Below are positions 1-18,787 of a stretch of DNA of 18,787 nucleotides, one piece after another (positions within the stretch are counted from its first letter, which is position 1; each line of letters starts with the position of its first letter). The notes under the pieces were generated by a model. That model did not search any database. It was not told the DNA's origin and was given only the letters and a program-made list of their open reading frames with translations. The position numbers and the translations under genes were made by a program. The stretch comes from a virus: the UHGV virus genome UHGV-0373676, one strand, 5' to 3'.

Positions 1-246
1 ACATATTCCAATGTTGTTGGAAATGATAATACTGCGCAGTATTATTCCGGTAACGTTTCACAAACAGTAACGATAGAAAAAGCAGGTATATACGAGGCAA
101 AGGCCTTCTTTGAAGGATTGGATAAGGCTGGAAGCAATGACGGAGAAGCCATTAATTTATCTGTCACGGACGGAAATGAAACAACCAAGGTTTCGAATGC
201 AATTAAATTAGATGAAACACTCCACGTCCGTCATCCCAGCCACGAA
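1..246 (+). CDS. 3' end of a plus-strand gene running in from outside the window; hypothetical, Ser/Thr/Asn/Gly-rich C-terminus that could be a fibre-tip-like domain
   Basis: Frame 1 is open from position 1 to a TAA at 244-246 with no in-frame ATG; about 35% GC by hand count; converges on and overlaps the tail-fibre ORF by 44 nt. Confidence 0.3.
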
Positions 247-709
247 TAAATTCACCGCGTAAATCAGGCAATTTATTTGTCGGATAAACCTTTGCCAGTT
301 CCGGGTATTCTTCAGCAGAAAAAGCCGCACCGTTGCATTTCAGCCAGCCAGTAGGCGGTGTGGCTGAAGGCCACGGAACAGGCACACCAACGGGTAATGC
401 CGAACCTTCTCCCAAACCAAGGTTTTCGAGAGCCGTTTTCACCGTGCCATCCGATTTGATATCACCAAACGGATTCTTGCGGCTTAACAGCAGAGCACGA
501 AGCGCGGTAAGCAACTGGTCGTTTCGCCCCTTCTCCAGGCTGGCACCGGATGCCTCTACCACGCTGCAGAGTTCTTCCTGCAACATATCAAAGTAGTCAT
601 CATCCAGATCGGTGGCAGGTGTGCCGGTCTGGGGGTTACCACGGGTAAAACCGTTCTTACCCGCGCCGAACTTATCCTTCTGCGCGGTTTTCGTGTCTAT
701 ACGATGCAT
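203..709 (-). CDS. Short tail fibre protein (Mu S / e14 StfP-like), apparently ending within or just after a tail-collar-like motif
   Basis: 168 aa; sits immediately after the gp48-like gene; C-terminal motif [24 protein letters not shown]...[17 protein letters not shown] resembles the phage tail collar domain; ORF stops 9 codons later. Confidence 0.65.
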
Positions 710-3306: not shown

Positions 3307-4385
3307 CAGAACGGGTCCTCCTGTACTCTGGCTTTTTTCTTTTTCCGCGCGCCGGGGGCTTCGGGTTCAGGCAGATAAGCATCAGGCGGGCCGACACGGA
3401 TTTCCGTCAGGGTGCCGTTCTGGTCCTGAGTAAACGTGACTTCCGAAACAAGCAGTTCGGTATTGTCGAAACCACAGACCGGATCAAAGACAATCACCCG
3501 CTGGTTGGGCTGCCACAGCGTACCGTTACCCTGTCGCCAGCCCTGCACCACATAGGTGGTTTCATCCGTCCGCGCCGCCCGTTGTCGGGCTTCAAAGTCC
3601 GCACGGGCAATACAGCCTGCCCCCGTAGCCTGCCCTGTCTGCCTGATATACATCGGACGGTAACGGGCAATAAATGCGTCCTCTGTGCGGGCCCGCAGCG
3701 CGGTGGTGGTGGCCTCACCGAAATCATCGTCGTTTCCGGCACGCTGCCCCGCCACCTGGTAAACTGAAAACCGCTCCCGGATACTCTTCTCCGTATCACA
3801 GGAAAGGATGTTTTCCCCAAGTACCAGCGCGGTATGTGCCCGCGTTGAGCCAATACCACCAATCACCAGCCTGCCGTGCGGGTCGTCATAAGCCAGCGCC
3901 TGCTGCTGACCGAGTATTTTGTTGATCACCTCGATCACCGTTTCACCGTGATCAGGCTGGACATCCGGAATAACACCCGACGGCGCATCGCTGTTCACCA
4001 CCTCAATGCCGAAAGGCGCAGCAAGCGCCTGCGCAATCTGTACCAGCGATCGTCCGTTAAACTGTGTCGGTTCGGCTGCACAGTCAATCAGGTCAGCAGT
4101 CAGACTACGTCCGGCAATACCGGTGCTGACCGAACGGGCATCGTAACGAACGGGGGTCGCCTCCACCCAGCCGGTGATCACCAGCTCATCACCAATCAGC
4201 ACTTCCACTTTTGAACCATTTTTAATGCGCGGCTGAAGCGTGGTGATACCCTCATCTCCCGGCCACTGGCGGGTGATCTCCACGCTGAAATCCCGCGCCA
4301 GCCGTTCAATACCGGCACCGATGCGCACCGATGTCCAGCCATTCCACTCCCGGCCATTTACCCGTAGCGTGACGTTATCGTTCAT
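3306..4385 (-). CDS. Tail/baseplate hub protein (Mu P, P2 gpD-like)
   Basis: 359 aa; N-terminus MNDNVTLRVNGREWNGW typical of the gpD/Mu P family; lysine-rich C-terminus. Confidence 0.8.
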   Translation of the reverse strand: MNDNVTLRVNGREWNGWTSVRIGAGIERLARDFSVEITRQWPGDEGITTLQPRIKNGSKVEVLIGDELVITGWVEATPVRYDARSVSTGIAGRSLTADLIDCAAEPTQFNGRSLVQIAQALAAPFGIEVVNSDAPSGVIPDVQPDHGETVIEVINKILGQQQALAYDDPHGRLVIGGIGSTRAHTALVLGENILSCDTEKSIRERFSVYQVAGQRAGNDDDFGEATTTALRARTEDAFIARYRPMYIRQTGQATGAGCIARADFEARQRAARTDETTYVVQGWRQGNGTLWQPNQRVIVFDPVCGFDNTELLVSEVTFTQDQNGTLTEIRVGPPDAYLPEPEAPGARKKKKARVQEDPF

Positions 4386-5710
4386 TGCACTGGCACCTTC
4401 AGAGGGATCACCGGCACAAAGCCGGGATGCGTAATGGCATTACGCCGGATAATGTCCGCGTCACGCGCCGCGTTATCAAACCAGGTCGCCGCCAGCACCA
4501 GCGCGGGTAAGACCTCATCCGGCGTGCGCTGAATGATCCGTGCAGACTGTTCAAGGCGCGTGTTGATATCCGCATTCAGATCTGCTTTCACCCGGCGCAG
4601 TGCCAGAAACAGCGCATCACTGGTTGTACGGGACAACTCCTTATCAATTGCCGTATTCAGTGTGTCGCGAATGTCAGTCAGTTCTTCCCACGTTGGCAGG
4701 TCAACCGTGTTTTTCACCGCCGGTGCATTGTTCAGTGCCGGATGCATGACGGAAGGCCAGCCGGTGCTCTGCGCGGGTGTTGTTGACTGCCCCACTGCGG
4801 CATTCTGCATCACCGCGGAAGTTGTTGGCGCAGGCAATCGGGTGATGGCATACGCCGCTTCGCTGATTGCGGTCGTACGAAGGGTGCTGGCAACCACGTT
4901 ACGCTGCTGCGTAGCCTTGGCGGTGGTTTTACTGACTGTTTTCCAGACGCCGCGCGGTTGCAGATCGCTGCCAAGGCTGACACCGGAAAGCGTCTTGATC
5001 ATGGTGACCAGGTCGCTGGCGTTACCATAAAGGCGTTTCCCGGTACGCCACATTTTCTGCACCTGCTCAACGAAGTTTTTGCCTGACGATGGCGGAGGCA
5101 GAAGTACCGAGATATCCCCCTGCAACAGTCTGGCGGCATCCGATACGGCAGAATCCACCACTTTCATCGCATCAGAAACATACCCAAGCATTGTGCTGGC
5201 ATTACCGACGACGTCGTTCTGCACAAAATCCGCCACGCCATCGATACTGAAACCACTGAAACTGTCACTGATGCAGTCATCCAGTGCAGAACAGGATGAC
5301 ATCAGCGTCTGCGCCGTCGCCGCACTTGAAGTGGGGTAAGAGAGTTCTCCCGCTTCGACAAACTTCAGGTCAAAGCGGACAATACGCCCTTCACTCTTCG
5401 ATGTGCTGACCCGAACTTCTCCGTCAACACAGACTTTCAGCTCACCGTAAGTCGGATGGACAAGCGTGCCGGGACCGGGTTTATTCAGCGCGTCAATCAG
5501 GCGATCGCGCTGGTCAAAGCAGTCATCGCCCACCACATAAGCCGTGATGGACGGGCGGAAAGTGACTTTTCCCAGATCTTCGGTATAGGGTTTGTCGCGG
5601 TTCGGATATTCGTGTGTTTCCACACGGCGACCTGTTCCCGCACTTTCTTCTTCAACCTTAAACGGCACACCGCGAAATGACGCGTCCTGAAGCCTGTCTT
5701 TCCACGTCAT
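4382..5710 (-). CDS. DNA circulation protein (Mu N-like); start moved to the internal ATG at 5710
   Basis: ORF track starts at 5758, but that extension overlaps the hairpin-U6 terminator at 5726-5747. The ATG at 5710 has a GGAG 7 nt upstream and gives MTWKDRLQDASFRGVPF, which matches how I recall Mu N-type proteins beginning. Confidence 0.75.
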   Translation of the reverse strand: MTWKDRLQDASFRGVPFKVEEESAGTGRRVETHEYPNRDKPYTEDLGKVTFRPSITAYVVGDDCFDQRDRLIDALNKPGPGTLVHPTYGELKVCVDGEVRVSTSKSEGRIVRFDLKFVEAGELSYPTSSAATAQTLMSSCSALDDCISDSFSGFSIDGVADFVQNDVVGNASTMLGYVSDAMKVVDSAVSDAARLLQGDISVLLPPPSSGKNFVEQVQKMWRTGKRLYGNASDLVTMIKTLSGVSLGSDLQPRGVWKTVSKTTAKATQQRNVVASTLRTTAISEAAYAITRLPAPTTSAVMQNAAVGQSTTPAQSTGWPSVMHPALNNAPAVKNTVDLPTWEELTDIRDTLNTAIDKELSRTTSDALFLALRRVKADLNADINTRLEQSARIIQRTPDEVLPALVLAATWFDNAARDADIIRRNAITHPGFVPVIPLKVPVQ

Positions 5711-5725
5711 ATAAACTCCGGATAT

Positions 5726-5747
5726 AAAAAAGCCCACCGAAGTGGGC
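5726..5747 (-). terminator. Intrinsic terminator downstream of the PH-domain moron
   Basis: Minus-strand RNA GCCCAC-UUCG-GUGGGC (6-bp GC stem, UUCG tetraloop) followed by UUUUUU; lies between the moron stop (5774) and the DNA-circulation start (5710). Confidence 0.55.
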
Positions 5748-5773
5748 ATGAAAGACATAAATTAATGTAAGGT

Positions 5774-6151
5774 TTACCCTGCTATTTTTTGAGCCAGATG
5801 AGCCTGCAATTTATAAATGTTTGCTCCTTTACTGAACTGTTTTTTTATCGGTTCTGCAATACCAGAAATCCATATCTTCATTTCAGCATCAAGATCAAGA
5901 TGCCCGGCGGTTTCAATAGAAAAGTTTGTCACAGATTTATAAGGAATCGAACGATACTCTACTTTTTTCCCTGTGACACCCTGCTTATCAATAAAAATTA
6001 ACCTTCTGTTAGTCAGAATAATTTGGTCACGAATGAGTTTATAGGCAAGTTCGACATTTTCTCCCTCACCTAAAACAGCCCCTAATTCCTGTTGTGCATC
6101 TGATGCATTAATTTCACCGGCATTACCTATAATGGCATGTAACAGCCCCAT
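5774..6151 (-). CDS. Bacterial PH-domain (bPH/YokE-like) protein; AT-rich moron
   Basis: 125 aa from the ATG at 6151 (ORF track begins 27 codons earlier at 6232, inside the tape-measure gene); AAGGGA Shine-Dalgarno 5 nt upstream; N-terminus MGLLHAIIGNAGE and motifs GKKVEYRSIPY and KIWISG resemble bPH proteins as I recall them; about 36% GC versus about 47-67% in flanking lines. Confidence 0.65.
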   Translation of the reverse strand: MGLLHAIIGNAGEINASDAQQELGAVLGEGENVELAYKLIRDQIILTNRRLIFIDKQGVTGKKVEYRSIPYKSVTNFSIETAGHLDLDAEMKIWISGIAEPIKKQFSKGANIYKLQAHLAQKIAG

Positions 6152-6187
6152 AGATTTCCCTTCAGTTGATAACAAACTTAAAGACAA

Positions 6188-6214
6188 ATTATATCTGGTT
6201 CCGTCATCTGCCAA
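6188..6214 (-). promoter_or_regulatory. Putative sigma70-type promoter for the moron (TTGGCA, 15-nt spacer, TATAAT)
   Basis: Minus-strand TTGGCA at 6214-6209 and TATAAT at 6193-6188, about 35 nt upstream of the moron ATG and overlapping the tape-measure stop codon; the spacer is shorter than the 17-nt optimum. Confidence 0.3.
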
Positions 6215-8039
6215 TATGCGTATAGCCAACATCGTGATTCATATCAAAACCGCTGGATCGCGTTTCCATAACCCGCATACCCGGAGGCGAATTCACAAAA
6301 GAGACCTTGATCTCACCGTCAACTTTTGGCGCAGAAGCTTTGTTAATCATGAAGGGATTCGAGCCTGTGGCACCGGAGGCGTTGTTTGCCTGAGCCGGAT
6401 CCACCGCCGGATAAGGTGTGTATCCCCGCGCCGGTATTCCCGTCCCATAAGCATCATAAGCACCCGCGCCCCACTGCGCCGAGTTAATGGCATCGACCGT
6501 GTCACCGGAACTGTCGGTAAACCACTCAATAATTGGCTTCAGCTTATCCCACATATCCTGAAACCACTTAACAACCGGTCCCCAGTTATTGATCACCATC
6601 CCCAGCGGCGACCAGGCAAAAACCTTCTTCAGAAGTTCCCAGCCAGCCTCAAAATAAGGACCAATGGTTTCCCAGAGCTTCTTGAAATAAGGTCCGACAA
6701 CATCCCAGTTAGTGATAATTAATCCCGCAGCCAGGGCTATCGCCGTCGCAATCATGCCAATCGGCGTCATCGACATGATCCTGCTGACAATGCTGATGGC
6801 ACTGCCCACGCCCATCAATCCCAGTTTCAGAATCGCAAGACCGGCAGCAAGCCCGACGACGCCGCGAATAACCCGGGGATTTTCATCCGCAAACTTCGTG
6901 AATTTCTCCCCCAACTCCCCCAGCCACTGCGTGATGTTCTTAGCGTCACCAGAAAATGCGCCGCCAATAGCCGCAAGGCCGTTGGTTGCGGTCCCCGTCA
7001 TTGCCTCCCACAGGTTGGACAGCGTACCAAGCTGAGCCTGAACACGTTTATTCAGGCTGGCCTGTTTATTCATCTTCTGCTGGATCTGATCGTAGCCATC
7101 CTTTCCTTTATCGATCAGGGCATTGACCACCTGAAGGGTTTCGGCATCATCACCAAATATTGCCTTAAGTACGCCTGTTCGCTTAACGTCGGTCAGTTTT
7201 CGCAACTTTGCCAGTTGCCTGAACATGTTATCAAGACCGCCAAAACTTCCTTTGCCGTCAGTAAAATCGAGCTGTACCCCGAGTTTCTGGCGGGCCATGA
7301 CTTTATTGACGTCCCTAATTTTCTTAACACTTAATCCGGACTGGATAACTTTTCGCAGGGCATTACCTGCCGACTCCCCGTTCATCCCCATCTGATCCAT
7401 CATGACGCTGATGGGGGCAAGACTCTGTGCAGCCTGAAGACCGTCCTTATTCACCATCTTCAGAACAGAGCTGGTTTTAGTGAAGAATGACAGCATGTTG
7501 GTGTCGTCAACGCCCAGATAAAACGCCTTCTGAATTGTGTCGAACAGCCCCATCATGTCTTCTGAGGCCGTTCCGGTAGCATCCTGCATCTTTGCGGCAA
7601 ACTCGGCAGCCGCTTCCGGTGTTTTTTTCAGTTGTACCGCAAGATAAGCTGTCGCTTTACCCACACCACCCAGAATGTTTTCTGCCGGGATCCCCTGACG
7701 CACCAGCATCTGCATCATGTTCTGGAAATCAGCCGTTGTACCGGGTAGCTGGTTACCCAGGCCAATAGCCAGTTTATTGATGTCCTGAAAGCTCTTTCCG
7801 ACCTCACCGTTCGCATCCATCATGGCAACTTTCAGCCCGGTGGCGGCGTTTTCCTGATCGGCATAAGATTTCAGGGAAAGCGTCAGACCCGCAGCCAGTC
7901 CGCCACCAAGCGCCAGCCCACCCTGTGACGCTTCTTCCGCCTGGCGTTTAAATCCCCGGATTTTCTTTTGCATTTTCGACAGCGCGGGAGAAAGCCTGTC
8001 GACACCGGTGATCAACGCCTTAAGCTCAAATTCAGCCAT
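6204..8039 (-). CDS. Tail tape measure protein
   Basis: 611 aa; Gly/Ala-rich N-terminal region, long helical middle and hydrophobic C-terminal segments; sits directly downstream of the chaperone frameshift region. Confidence 0.85.
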   Translation of the reverse strand: MAEFELKALITGVDRLSPALSKMQKKIRGFKRQAEEASQGGLALGGGLAAGLTLSLKSYADQENAATGLKVAMMDANGEVGKSFQDINKLAIGLGNQLPGTTADFQNMMQMLVRQGIPAENILGGVGKATAYLAVQLKKTPEAAAEFAAKMQDATGTASEDMMGLFDTIQKAFYLGVDDTNMLSFFTKTSSVLKMVNKDGLQAAQSLAPISVMMDQMGMNGESAGNALRKVIQSGLSVKKIRDVNKVMARQKLGVQLDFTDGKGSFGGLDNMFRQLAKLRKLTDVKRTGVLKAIFGDDAETLQVVNALIDKGKDGYDQIQQKMNKQASLNKRVQAQLGTLSNLWEAMTGTATNGLAAIGGAFSGDAKNITQWLGELGEKFTKFADENPRVIRGVVGLAAGLAILKLGLMGVGSAISIVSRIMSMTPIGMIATAIALAAGLIITNWDVVGPYFKKLWETIGPYFEAGWELLKKVFAWSPLGMVINNWGPVVKWFQDMWDKLKPIIEWFTDSSGDTVDAINSAQWGAGAYDAYGTGIPARGYTPYPAVDPAQANNASGATGSNPFMINKASAPKVDGEIKVSFVNSPPGMRVMETRSSGFDMNHDVGYTHIGR

Positions 8040-8199
8040 GTGTGCGTTTCTCCTGCTCTATCCTGTTTGCCTGACTGACCAGCAAGGGAATTTCACTGAT
8101 CGGCATATTCAGCAATTCGAAGGGATTAATGCGCCAGTAACTGGCGCAGTCAAAGAAGCGATCAGTGAGGTATTCAGCCGTCAGGCCTGGAGGAAAAAA
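8032..8199 (-). CDS. -1 frame extension of the tail assembly chaperone (GT-like frameshift product)
   Basis: The -1 frame is open from the slippery site to a stop at 8032-8034 and would append about 53 residues (PPGLTAEYLTD...RTHG) to the chaperone. Confidence 0.5.
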   Translation of the reverse strand, partial: FFPPGLTAEYLTDRFFDCASYWRINPFELLNMPISEIPLLVSQANRIEQEKRTHG

Positions 8200-8450
8200 C
8201 CAGCCACAAGCCACGCCGCTGCATTCAGGTCTGCCGGAGACATCTGGTCGACAGAGCTTTGCGGCACTTTCGCCAGCCGCACAATGTATTTCGACACCAC
8301 ATGCGCCAGAAGTTTGACTGACTCATCCTGATTCATCTGGTAGGGATACCCCAGCTCGCGGACATCCTTCCCGGTAGGCTCATCAAACTCCAGTACGGAG
8401 AGTGTCTCGCCATGAGCAGTAATCGGTTTCTTTAACTCAAGCTCTTTCAT
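8181..8450 (-). CDS. Tail assembly chaperone (lambda G / Mu gp41-like)
   Basis: 89 aa; between tube and tape measure; start ATG overlaps the tube stop (TAATG); carries the slippery site near its 3' end. Confidence 0.65.
   Translation of the reverse strand: MKELELKKPITAHGETLSVLEFDEPTGKDVRELGYPYQMNQDESVKLLAHVVSKYIVRLAKVPQSSVDQMSPADLNAAAWLVAGFFLQA
8193..8199 (-). promoter_or_regulatory. Slippery heptamer T-TTT-TTC for programmed -1 ribosomal frameshifting
   Basis: Zero-frame codons GGT-TTT-TTC (G-F-F) lie 5 codons before the chaperone stop; X-XXY-YYZ pattern with the -1 frame open downstream. Confidence 0.55.
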
Positions 8451-18220: not shown

Positions 18221-18340
18221 ATGTACTCCAATGAAGAAGCCACCGACATAGCCTCCTCCATTCATCGTGAAACTATTTTCATCTACCCAGTAATGAATTC
18301 TTTGTAGAGTTGTGATCAATACAACTCACTAATGGAGAGG

Positions 18341-18362
18341 CTTGTCCAACACGTTGGACAAG
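18341..18362. repeat. Perfect 22-bp palindrome CTTGTCCAAC-AC-GTTGGACAAG; putative regulator-binding site or hairpin
   Basis: 10-bp perfect inverted arms around a 2-bp spacer, in the AT-rich intergenic region upstream of HNH; followed on the plus strand by a T-rich tract (TTTCCTGTTTGATTT). Confidence 0.5.
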
Positions 18363-18442
18363 TTTCCTGTTTGATTTACTGGACACTATAGAAGGACAGA
18401 ATGCCTTCATCACTCGAATAACATCAATTAAGGAGGTTCAAC

Positions 18443-18565
18443 ATGTTTCATTCCACAAATCATCAGGCTGTAATTATGGCTGCATCAGCTTGTGCCACAG
18501 ACCTTTTCCGCTTCACTTTAAGCCTGATTCATTTCTACCTGACCGGCTCGCCTCTATCTTTTTAA
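18443..18565 (+). CDS. Hypothetical 40-aa ORF with a consensus Shine-Dalgarno
   Basis: TAAGGAGGT at 18429-18437, ATG at 18443, TAA at 18563-18565; MFHSTNHQAVIMAASACATDLFRFTLSLIHFYLTGSPLSF; no homolog recognised. Confidence 0.3.
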   Translation: MFHSTNHQAVIMAASACATDLFRFTLSLIHFYLTGSPLSF

Positions 18566-18730
18566 TCCCCGCTTTATCCAAATTGCATTGCCATAATGCC
18601 GACAACAGACTGACATTCAAATCCTGACTACCTCCAATAGTCTGACCGTACACCTATATAGTTTTAATTTTCATCAATCCATTTAACTATCGTTTAATTG
18701 TTGTCACATAGGATTCTGCCGTTTTTAACA

Positions 18731-18787
18731 ATGCAGGATAATAAGATGAAAAAAATGTTGTTTTCTGCCGCTCTGGCAATGCTTATT
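18731..18787 (+). CDS. 5' end of an iss/bor-family lipoprotein gene (serum-resistance type); continues beyond the window
   Basis: Reads MQDNKMKKMLFSAALAMLI... from the ATG at 18731, with an alternative start at 18746 (MKKMLF...); this matches the Iss/Bor signal-peptide N-terminus as I recall it; on the opposite strand to the late genes, as bor is in lambda. Confidence 0.55.
   Translation, partial: MQDNKMKKMLFSAALAMLI

What the first reader, a model, noticed from the sequence alone, without database searches (positions are those of the whole stretch)
5710..6214. AT-rich single-gene moron encoding a PH-domain-like protein inside the tail operon
A 125-aa ORF (6151 to 5774, minus strand) sits between the tape-measure and DNA-circulation genes, where Mu-type tail clusters have no gene that I know of. 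By hand count it is about 36% GC against about 47-67% in flanking lines. It has its own expression signals: TTGGCA-15-TATAAT overlapping the tape-measure stop, an AAGGGA Shine-Dalgarno, and a GCCCAC-UUCG-GUGGGC-U6 terminator before the next gene. That is the classic moron layout (promoter, gene, terminator, foreign composition), implying expression from the prophage independent of late transcription. The protein looks like a bacterial PH (bPH/YokE-like) domain and not a virion part. Its function is unknown; roles such as superinfection exclusion, anti-phage defence or lysogenic conversion are speculation.
Basis: partly seen in the sequence, partly recalled or inferred. Interest (0 to 1): 0.8.

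Follow-up and report, generated by a model that had tools for sequence, protein, structure and literature searches.

The report
Bacterial PH-domain moron in prophage tail operon
A small AT-rich extra gene for a ring-forming bacterial PH-domain protein sits in a swappable cargo slot between two tail genes of an SfV-like E. coli prophage; it is a textbook phage 'moron' from a known protein family whose function is still unknown.

Summary
ORF 6151..5774 (-) encodes a 125-aa protein that matches Pfam bPH_1/PF08000 over its full length (E 3e-48). It is about 50% identical to the solved Shewanella PHb1 structures 3DCX and 3HSA. The gene has 38% GC (GC3 29%) against 52-58% in the flanking genes.

Synteny supports the moron reading. 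The flanking tape-measure and DNA-circularisation genes occur together in 847 complete E. coli genomes. About 60% of a sampled set, plus SfV, SfI and SfII, have an empty slot. Others carry a 170-aa signal-peptide protein or a membrane-anchored OB-fold 'Sie-like' protein. Only 28 genomes carry the PH gene, always in this slot, and IS1 disrupts it in four. Edwardsiella phages carry the same gene in the same slot, with dN/dS of 0.02-0.07.

Two corrections apply:
- The terminator belongs to the phage backbone, not to the insert.
- The -35 element lies in the last tape-measure codons, so only the -10 arrives with the insert. The promoter is untested.

In other temperate phages PHb1 genes sit in lysogeny modules, as Xu et al. 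2010 already noted. I infer a lysogen-expressed protective role, probably anti-phage. This is a new member of a known kind, of moderate interest.

The parts
5774..6151 (-). PHb1 (bPH_1/PF08000) gene: 125 aa, soluble, no transmembrane segment
   Evidence: Translation. Pfam bPH_1 E 3.1e-48 over residues 3-122. phrog_7115. PDB 3DCX/3HSA E 4e-39. AF2 pLDDT 80.6 with Foldseek TM about 0.8. Maximum KD19 hydropathy 0.58. GC 38.1%, GC3 29.4%.
5774..6206 (-). 433-bp segment absent from SfV/SfI/SfII-type prophages (the moron insert; boundaries ambiguous by a few nt)
   Evidence: The 1501-nt query spans 1068 nt in empty-slot records. Three-way alignment with SfII and EPP-1.
6188..6214 (-). Candidate sigma-70 promoter TTGGCA-15 nt-TATAAT. 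The -35 (6214-6209) lies in the last tape-measure codons. The -10 (6193-6188) lies in the insert.
   Evidence: Sequence. Only site with at least 11/12 matches in the window. TTGGCA is also present in empty SfII. TATTGGCAGAT is retained in the non-coding remnant of Edwardsiella phages, where the -10 is TATAAC. Activity is untested.
6157..6162 (-). Shine-Dalgarno AAGGGA, 5 nt upstream of the ATG
   Evidence: Sequence. Conserved as AAGGGG in the Edwardsiella copies.
5726..5747 (-). Intrinsic-terminator-like hairpin GCCCAC-UUCG-GUGGGC plus U6. It is resident in the phage backbone and shared by empty-slot relatives.
   Evidence: Terminator scan. RNA fold. Homologous hairpins TCCCAC/GTGGGA (SfII) and CCCGC/GCGGG (L010) at the same site show compensatory changes.
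6204..8039 (-). Tail tape-measure gene (upstream flank of the slot)
   Evidence: Pfam PhageMin_Tail E 1e-26. RefSeq annotation of an identical locus.
4382..5710 (-). DNA-circularisation / Mu gp43(N)-like gene (downstream flank). Start is ATG 5710 behind GGAG 5719-5716, not the longer ORF start at 5758.
   Evidence: Pfam DNA_circ_N E 5e-34. RefSeq start. Sequence.

Best explanation
This is a moron: a 433-bp accessory cassette in a polymorphic cargo slot between the tape-measure and DNA-circularisation genes of an SfV-like (Mu-type tail, lambdoid Q-regulated) E. coli prophage.

Shown:
- Its product is a soluble cytoplasmic member of the PHb1 family (PF08000). That family forms dome-shaped rings and is predicted to dock onto another protein through a conserved patch.
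- It is dispensable for the virion and under strong purifying selection.

Inferred mode of expression:
- In the lysogen, a hybrid promoter fires. Its -35 lies in the last tape-measure codons and its perfect -10 lies in the insert.
- The transcript stops at the backbone's resident terminator, so downstream tail genes stay silent.
- In lytic growth, Q-antiterminated late transcription reads through both the gene and the terminator.

Inferred function: the protein protects the lysogen. The most likely role is interference with incoming phages, either superinfection exclusion or defence acting from the cytoplasmic face of the inner membrane by capping or sequestering a host or phage protein.

My sub-probabilities:
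- Accessory moron cargo: about 0.9.
- Transcribed in the lysogen from this promoter: about 0.55.
- Anti-phage role: about 0.35.
For: Identity: Pfam bPH_1, PDB homologues, model and fold match, no hydrophobic segment.

Accessory status:
- The slot is empty in SfV, SfI, SfII and SfIV and in about 29 of 47 sampled E. coli records that have both flanks.
- The PH gene is in 28 of 5426 complete genomes, always in this slot.
- IS1 disrupts it in 4 of those 28.

Selection: dN/dS is 0.02-0.07 against the Edwardsiella copies in the same slot. PH is 89% identical at the protein level, against 70% for the tape measure and 68% for the DNA-circularisation protein.

Slot as a cargo site:
- Alternative occupants are a membrane-anchored OB-fold protein that hits a PHROG annotated 'superinfection exclusion Sie-like', and a 170-aa protein with a signal peptide.

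Lysogen-type context elsewhere:
- ul36 ORF124 lies between the integrase and the repressor.
- In a Vibrio 186-like phage the gene lies between cI and a SIR2 defence-like gene plus the integrase.
- In 32 non-redundant IMG/VR loci the neighbours are dominated by HTH repressors, ImmA/M78, S24, integrase and Ltp.
- Xu et al. 2010 noted the lysogeny-module location and that B. subtilis YozO is sigma-W controlled (PMC2817789).
- Lactococcal bIL285 Orf2 ('sie285') is a membrane protein with a PHb domain at the sie position (PMC6127208).

Signals: this is the only site with at least 11/12 promoter matches in the window. The hairpin is conserved with compensatory changes. Q antitermination in this phage group comes from PMC3851460. 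The HK97 gp15 precedent is a moron next to the tape-measure gene that excludes phages (PMC3594210).
Against: - No expression data exist.
- The spacer is 15 nt, which is suboptimal and is missed by the standard scan.
- The Edwardsiella copies have TATAAC, which lacks the conserved final T.
- The gene is co-oriented with the late operon and has no terminator upstream, so late read-through alone could express it.
- None of the three cargo proteins hits PADLOC.
- Unlike characterised Sie proteins, the PH protein has no membrane anchor.
- Chromosomal PHb1 genes are stand-alone housekeeping-like genes with no conserved partner. The phage copies keep all family-invariant residues. A generic cellular role, such as envelope stress, is therefore equally compatible.
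- No paper found assigns a function to PHb1.
Confidence: 0.55

Rival explanations
1. Lysogenic conversion unrelated to phages. The prophage supplies its host with an extra copy of a cellular PHb1 stress factor that raises tolerance to envelope or antimicrobial stress.
For: B. subtilis paralogue YozO is sigma-W controlled and induced by antibiotics, heat and alkali. PHb homologues are found in insoluble sub-proteomes (PMC2817789). The phage copies keep all family-invariant residues. E. coli otherwise appears to lack this family: the only E. coli cluster among the hits is this prophage gene. Prophage bIL285, which carries a PHb-domain protein, changes sensitivity to lysozyme and nisin (PMC6127208).
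Against: In that Lactococcus study the prophage increased sensitivity rather than tolerance, and the gene responsible was not identified. The other occupants of this slot, and the neighbours elsewhere (Sie-like OB-fold, Ltp, SIR2), point towards phage-phage conflict.
Confidence: 0.2
2. Late-expressed lytic-cycle helper. The promoter-like site is chance in AT-rich DNA. The gene is transcribed only with the tail operon and acts during virion production, for example by countering a host defence or modulating lysis or assembly timing.
For: The gene has the same orientation as the late operon and no terminator lies between it and the tape-measure gene. The spacer is suboptimal and the Edwardsiella -10 is degraded. 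The gene has stayed in this slot long enough to saturate synonymous sites.
Against: In other phages the family sits in lysogeny modules co-oriented with the repressor and integrase, not in late operons. About 96%-identical tail modules work without it.
Confidence: 0.15
3. Neutral hitch-hiker: a captured bacterial gene with no current function for phage or host.
For: It is rare (28 of 847 genomes that carry this tail module). IS1 knocks it out in 4 of 28 genomes.
Against: dN/dS is 0.02-0.07 with saturated dS, and the protein is better conserved than its structural neighbours. The reading frame is intact in E. coli and in several Edwardsiella-associated copies: phage EPP-1, an unidentified sequencing-run contig, and E. 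anguillarum and E. hoshinae genomes.
Confidence: 0.05
4. Structural or assembly component of the Mu-type tail.
For: Its position inside the tail operon.
Against: It is absent from SfV, SfI, SfII, SfIV and most related prophages that have near-identical flanking genes. Homologues are stand-alone chromosomal genes in many phyla.
Confidence: 0.02

Closest known systems
PHb1 proteins of Pfam PF08000/DUF1696 (Shewanella loihica 3DCX, S. amazonensis 3HSA; Xu et al. 2010, PMC2817789)
   Same: Same family, length and fold: 49-51% identity, phmmer E 4e-39, Foldseek TM about 0.8. All family-invariant residues are kept.
   Different: Those are chromosomal stand-alone genes. This copy is carried in a prophage tail operon with foreign composition. 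Ring assembly was not tested for this copy.
Lactococcus phage ul36 ORF124, Microbacterium phage Min1 ORF77 and a Vibrio 186-like phage PH gene (PHb1 genes of temperate phages)
   Same: Same family (33-40% identity). Accessory cargo of temperate phages. The lysogeny-module location was already noted in 2010.
   Different: Those genes lie beside the integrase and repressor, or in Min1 at the genome end. This one lies in the late tail operon, between the tape-measure and DNA-circularisation genes.
HK97 gp15 moron (Juhala 2000; Cumby 2012; review PMC3594210)
   Same: A single small gene with deviant GC inserted next to the tape-measure gene in the tail operon of a Q-regulated phage. It has its own promoter, is followed by a terminator, is expressed from the prophage and excludes superinfecting phages.
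   Different: gp15 is a YebO-like inner-membrane protein on the other side of the tape-measure gene, between it and the chaperone gene. It has no sequence or fold relation to PHb1. Its function has been shown; the function here has not.
Lactococcal bIL285 Orf2 ('Sie285')
   Same: Contains a C-terminal PHb domain and sits at the canonical superinfection-exclusion position of a prophage. It is expressed in lysogens (PMC2817789, PMC6127208).
   Different: It has a hydrophobic N-terminal membrane anchor (181 aa). According to the paper read, exclusion activity was demonstrated for sie309 and sie312, not for sie285.
B. subtilis YozO (PHb1 paralogue, sigma-W regulon)
   Same: Same family, single-domain soluble protein.
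   Different: It is a chromosomal gene induced by envelope stress. Its function is also unknown.

Membership tests
Pfam PF08000 bPH_1 / PHb1 (DUF1696) | Profile-HMM match above the curated gathering score over the whole domain | tested here: met
   163.2 bits against a cut-off of 27.7. Residues 3-122 match profile positions 2-121 of 122.
Pfam PF08000 bPH_1 / PHb1 (DUF1696) | PH-like fold: seven-stranded beta-sandwich capped by a C-terminal helix | tested here: met
   AF2 model with pLDDT 80.6 has strands at 33-107 and a helix at 112-124. Top Foldseek hits are 3DCX and 3HSA (TM 0.80-0.85), followed by eukaryotic PH domains.
Pfam PF08000 bPH_1 / PHb1 (DUF1696) | Group-1 architecture: single domain of about 125 aa with no membrane segment | tested here: met
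   125 aa. Maximum 19-residue Kyte-Doolittle hydropathy is 0.58.
Pfam PF08000 bPH_1 / PHb1 (DUF1696) | Dome-shaped ring oligomer (C5-based) | not testable with these tools
   Only monomer prediction is available. Inferred from about 50% identity to the crystallised rings.
Moron (Juhala/Hendrix definition) | Extra DNA between two genes that are adjacent in related phages | tested here: met
   A 433-bp indel relative to SfV, SfI, SfII and most E. coli relatives.
Moron (Juhala/Hendrix definition) | Base composition different from the surrounding genes | tested here: met
   GC 38% and GC3 29%, against GC 52-58% and GC3 58-64%.
Moron (Juhala/Hendrix definition) | Own promoter | tested here: inconclusive
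   An 11/12 consensus match that is unique in the window. However, the spacer is 15 nt, the -35 lies in the backbone's tape-measure codons, and the Edwardsiella copies have TATAAC. There are no expression data.
Moron (Juhala/Hendrix definition) | Terminator after the gene | tested here: met
   Hairpin plus U6 at 5747-5726. Caveat: it is the backbone's resident terminator, also present in empty-slot phages.
Moron (Juhala/Hendrix definition) | Expressed from the repressed prophage | not testable with these tools
   Needs RNA-seq or 5'-RACE in a lysogen.
Characterised superinfection-exclusion proteins (HK97 gp15, Sie2009, P22 SieA type) | Small membrane-inserted protein with a hydrophobic N-terminus or transmembrane segment | tested here: not met
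   No hydrophobic segment. By contrast, the OB-fold and 170-aa cargos of the same slot have one.
Characterised superinfection-exclusion proteins (HK97 gp15, Sie2009, P22 SieA type) | Blocks genome entry of the superinfecting phage without blocking adsorption | not testable with these tools
   Needs phage challenge and DNA-entry assays.
Known anti-phage defence systems (PADLOC-DB v2) | Match to a defence-protein model | tested here: not met
   No hit at E up to 0.1.
Conserved Mu-type tail component | Present in all related tail clusters | tested here: not met
   Present in 28 of 847 E. coli genomes that carry both flanking genes. Absent from SfV, SfI, SfII and SfIV.

The most novel reading that the evidence does not exclude
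The tape-measure/DNA-circularisation junction of SfV-like (Mu-tail) prophages may be an unrecognised hotspot for lysogen-protective genes. PHb1 (DUF1696), function unknown since 2010, may be a new kind of prophage-encoded anti-phage factor: a soluble cytoplasmic ring, captured repeatedly by temperate phages of Firmicutes, Actinobacteria, Vibrio and Enterobacteria. It would block infection from the inside, for example by capping an inner-membrane channel or by sequestering an incoming phage protein.
Probability: 0.3. Interest if true: 0.65.

Novelty: new member of a known kind. Interest (0 to 1): 0.4.

Why it matters
PHb1/DUF1696 is a widespread bacterial protein with solved structures but no known function. 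This is a natural, easily manipulated E. coli setting for studying it: a single gene, isogenic-like prophages with and without it, and IS1 knock-outs already present in nature. Its recurrence in lysogeny modules of unrelated temperate phages gives a concrete, testable hypothesis of lysogen protection. The finding also marks one junction in a very common E. coli prophage family (about 20% of complete genomes) as a swappable cargo site with at least four states. That could be mined for further exclusion or defence genes. If the function turns out to be mundane, the case remains a clean textbook example of a moron that uses a backbone terminator and a hybrid promoter.

Tried and rejected
- PADLOC and NCBIfam scans of the PH protein and the two alternative cargos gave no hits.
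- An Rfam scan of 5500-6400 gave only sub-threshold hits; the weak isrB hit is just the terminator.
- I looked for a conserved partner gene. Neighbours of chromosomal homologues (Edaphovirga, Photobacterium and 50 GTDB species) share no family: 115 families among 91 neighbours, none in more than 4. The idea of a two-gene system was dropped.
- I considered a PH plus SIR2 pairing as a defence system. It was seen in only one Vibrio phage and was not generalised.
- Literature searches for a PHb1 function, for PH-domain proteins in anti-phage defence, and for this slot in SfV-like phages found nothing beyond Xu et al. 2010 and the Lactococcus IL1403 paper.
- Mahony et al. 2008 (PMC2570291), the primary Sie paper, is not held.
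- The longer DNA-circularisation ORF starting at 5758, which would translate through the hairpin, was rejected in favour of ATG 5710. The reasons are the SD GGAG, the RefSeq start, and the Pfam domain starting right after 5710.
- 'Recent horizontal acquisition' as the explanation of the low GC was rejected for the E. coli/Edwardsiella lineage, because dS is saturated.
Full report
**1. What is in the sequence**

On the minus strand an ORF runs from ATG 6151 to TAA 5776-5774 and encodes 125 aa. Upstream is the tape-measure gene (8039..6204, Pfam PhageMin_Tail). Downstream is a gene with the DNA_circ_N domain, the counterpart of Mu gp43/N.

The rest of the window is a Mu-type contractile tail and baseplate joined to an HK97-type head module, plus terminase and an HNH gene. 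The DNA is 95-99% identical to Shigella/E. coli phages SfV, SfI and SfII, and to prophages in about 1100 of 5426 complete E. coli genomes.

The ORF has 38.1% GC and 29.4% GC3. The neighbouring genes have 52-58% GC and 58-64% GC3. This is the lowest-GC stretch of the window.

- TTGGCA (6214-6209), a 15-nt spacer and TATAAT (6193-6188).
- AAGGGA (6162-6157), 5 nt before the ATG.
- The hairpin GCCCAC-UUCG-GUGGGC (5747-5732) followed by U6.

The promoter-like site is the only one in the whole window, on either strand, with at least 11 of 12 consensus matches at spacers of 15-19. The tool's own scan requires 16-18 and misses it.

**2. What the protein is**

It matches Pfam bPH_1 (PF08000, formerly DUF1696) end to end at E 3e-48, with bPH_3 as a weak secondary hit. 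It also matches phrog_7115, a family of unknown function.

By sequence alone it matches the crystal structures 3DCX and 3HSA from Shewanella at E 4e-39. An AlphaFold2 model (pLDDT 80.6) shows the beta-sandwich plus C-terminal helix. It superposes on those structures with TM 0.80-0.85 at 49-51% identity. Eukaryotic PH domains follow further down the list.

The protein has no hydrophobic segment, so it is a soluble cytoplasmic 'PHb1' protein. Xu et al. 2010 (PMC2817789) showed that PHb1 forms dome-shaped rings. They predicted that a conserved surface patch binds another protein rather than lipid. The function of the family is unknown, and I found no later paper that assigns one.

**3. Synteny: the slot is a polymorphic cargo site**

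With a query spanning both flanks, SfV, SfI, SfII and most E. coli relatives align in two pieces whose span is 433 bp shorter (1068 against 1501). The tape-measure and DNA-circularisation genes are adjacent there.

A flank-only query found both flanks in 847 genomes. In an evenly spaced sample of 60 records the counts were:
- 29 empty.
- 13 with a roughly 620-bp insert encoding a 170-aa protein, as in phage SKA5.
- 3 with a reverse-oriented OB-fold gene.
- 1 with the PH gene.
- 1 with another arrangement.
- 12 matching only the DNA-circularisation flank (another tape-measure type, as in SfIV, whose slot is also empty).
- 1 stray match to only 20% of the query, under a gp46 gene.

The 170-aa protein has an N-terminal signal-like segment and no annotated function (phrog_8976). 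The OB-fold protein has an N-terminal transmembrane helix, matches Pfam tRNA_anti-like, and hits a PHROG annotated 'superinfection exclusion Sie-like'.

The PH gene occurs in 28 of 5426 complete genomes, always in this slot and always at 99% nucleotide identity or more. IS1 interrupts it in four of them. It is therefore dispensable cargo and not a tail component.

**4. The same cassette in Edwardsiella phages, and selection**

Several Edwardsiella-associated sequences carry the gene in the same slot at 88-91% protein identity. These are phage EPP-1, an unidentified sequencing-run contig (DRR012590) with a near-identical arrangement, and the genomes of E. anguillarum and E. hoshinae. The next relatives are at most 75% identical. 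At 72% (Edaphovirga) and 66% (Photobacterium) the gene is chromosomal and stands alone.

Between the E. coli and Edwardsiella copies, dN/dS is 0.02-0.07 and synonymous sites are saturated (dS above 2). The PH protein (89%) is better conserved than the tape-measure protein (70%) and the DNA-circularisation protein (68%) on either side of it. The gene is therefore an old, selected resident of this slot. The low GC (38-40% in both lineages) is not a sign of recent arrival.

In the Edwardsiella phages the phage's own tape-measure stop is followed by a roughly 45-nt in-frame relic of an E. coli-type tape-measure end ('IDVNHDAEHTSIGR*'), and then by the PH gene. The cassette evidently travelled together with that piece, which contains the TTGGCA.

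**5. Expression signals, re-examined**

The terminator is not the moron's own.
- Empty-slot SfII has TCCCAC-UCCG-GUGGGA plus U6 at the same distance from the GGAG-ATG of the DNA-circularisation gene. The SfII authors annotated it as a terminator.
- Another prophage has CCCGC-UUCG-GCGGG at the same place.
- These are compensatory changes at a fixed site, so the hairpin is a genuine backbone feature. The PH cassette sits just upstream of it.

An internal terminator is tolerable because this phage group drives late genes by lambdoid Q antitermination (PMC3851460).

The -35 TTGGCA lies in the last tape-measure codons and is also present in empty SfII. Only the perfect -10 arrives with the insert.
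- In favour of a real promoter: the match is unique in the window, and TATTGGCAGAT is preserved exactly in the non-coding Edwardsiella relic while neighbouring bases diverge.
- Against: the 15-nt spacer, no TG extension, and TATAAC in Edwardsiella.

No terminator separates the gene from the tape-measure gene. It will therefore also be transcribed with the late operon.

**6. What the family does in other phages**

- Lactococcus phage ul36: ORF124 lies between the integrase and the ImmA-like protease and CI repressor, on their strand.
- Vibrio 186-like phage: the gene lies between cI and a SIR2 protein related to pAgo-associated SIR2 effectors (PADLOC E 3e-64), next to the integrase.
- Microbacterium phage Min1: the gene lies at the genome end.

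IMG/VR holds 142 viral loci with a PHb1 gene. In 32 non-redundant loci outside the SfV group, the proteins within two genes of it are dominated by the following, and many loci lie 1-3 kb from a prophage contig end:
- HTH_3 repressors (12).
- Peptidase M78/ImmA (6).
- Integrase (4).
- S24 (4).
- The Ltp lipoprotein domain (2).
- Bro-N (2).

Xu et al. had already noted the lysogeny-module location for ul36 and Min1. They also noted that B. subtilis YozO belongs to the sigma-W envelope-stress regulon. Lactococcal bIL285 Orf2, named sie285 for its position and hydrophobic N-terminus, carries a C-terminal PHb domain.

Chromosomal PHb1 genes have no conserved neighbour, so no partner can be read from gene context.

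**7. Best explanation and rivals**

*Shown:* a dispensable, selected, compositionally foreign single-gene cassette encoding a PHb1 protein, in a slot that holds different cargo in sister prophages.

*Inferred:* it is transcribed in the lysogen from the hybrid promoter and stopped by the resident terminator, and it is read through by Q-modified polymerase in lytic growth. This is the classic moron logic, with HK97 gp15 as the closest precedent. That moron lies next to the tape-measure gene and excludes superinfecting phages (PMC3594210).

*Inferred with less confidence:* the product protects the lysogen. I favour interference with incoming phages (about 0.35). The slot's other occupants are envelope proteins, one of which is annotated as Sie-like. 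Elsewhere the family also sits where exclusion and defence genes sit. The mechanism would have to differ from known Sie proteins, because this protein is soluble. A ring that caps or sequesters a partner at the cytoplasmic face is the picture suggested by the structures.

*Rivals:*
- A stress-tolerance conversion factor (0.2).
- A late-only lytic helper (0.15).
- A neutral passenger (0.05, contradicted by dN/dS).
- A tail component (0.02, contradicted by synteny).

**8. Novelty and verdict**

Morons, PHb1 proteins and PHb1 genes in temperate phages are all known. What I did not find described is this cassette in the tail operon of SfV-like prophages, or the multi-state cargo slot at that junction.

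It is a new member of a known kind. A specialist would not be surprised, but it offers a tractable E. coli handle on a family of unknown function. Interest is 0.4.

Noticed in passing
L011 1969-2421 (-) and L004 2026-2412 (-); same slot as window 5774-6206: In other E. coli prophages the slot holds a reverse-oriented gene for a 150-aa protein with an N-terminal transmembrane helix and an OB-fold (Pfam tRNA_anti-like). It hits phrog_8545, 'superinfection exclusion Sie-like'. A bidirectional hairpin lies between it and the tape-measure stop. The L004 copy looks N-terminally truncated.
   Followed up: partly
L003 2076-2588 (+) (phage SKA5); same slot: About a quarter of sampled relatives carry a 170-aa AT-rich gene here (phrog_8976, no Pfam or PADLOC hit). 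It has an N-terminal signal-like hydrophobic segment and an RBS (TGAAGGGA) resembling that of the PH gene. Its function is unknown.
   Followed up: partly
L005 2895-2945 and L017 about 5895-5945: Edwardsiella phages keep a second, non-coding but still in-frame relic of an E. coli-type tape-measure 3' end ('IDVNHDAEHTSIGR*') between their own tape-measure stop and the PH gene. The cassette therefore moved together with that piece.
   Followed up: partly
L012 2136-3289 (E. coli EC_J_9 and three other genomes): IS1 is inserted inside the PH gene, at a point corresponding to about window 6062. This splits the gene into 33-aa and 100-aa annotated fragments, giving natural knock-outs.
   Followed up: yes
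L007 3450-5737 (Vibrio phage 10N.286.45.B12_PE001): A PHb1 gene lies directly upstream of a 612-aa SIR2-domain protein related to pAgo-associated SIR2 effectors (PADLOC E 3e-64), between cI and the integrase. This could be a defence island or a functional pair.
   Followed up: partly
window 5711-5758 (-): A longer in-frame ORF for the DNA-circularisation gene starts at ATG 5758 and would translate through the terminator hairpin. The SfII and SfIV records annotate this long form. The SD, the Pfam domain start and RefSeq all favour ATG 5710, so the long form is probably a mis-annotation.
   Followed up: partly
window 8032-8214 (-): A 142-nt gap lies between the tail-assembly chaperone gene (8450..8181) and the tape-measure gene. 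An overlapping 60-aa ORF in another frame sits there, which looks like the usual frameshift-extended chaperone product.
   Followed up: no
window 1-709: The tail-fibre ORF (709..203, Collar domain) is only 168 aa. The sequence beyond it changes character, and a related record annotates stfP as incomplete. The fibre gene may be truncated or rearranged at the window edge.
   Followed up: no
window 18320-18787: This is the second low-GC stretch of the window. It is apparently non-coding and lies upstream of the HNH endonuclease and terminase genes.
   Followed up: no
L013 (NZ_AP023208.1, 70-kb 'plasmid' pMTY18781-3): One copy of the whole head-tail module, including the PH gene, lies on a record deposited as a 70-kb circular plasmid. 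It could be a phage-plasmid, an excised prophage or an assembly artefact.
   Followed up: no
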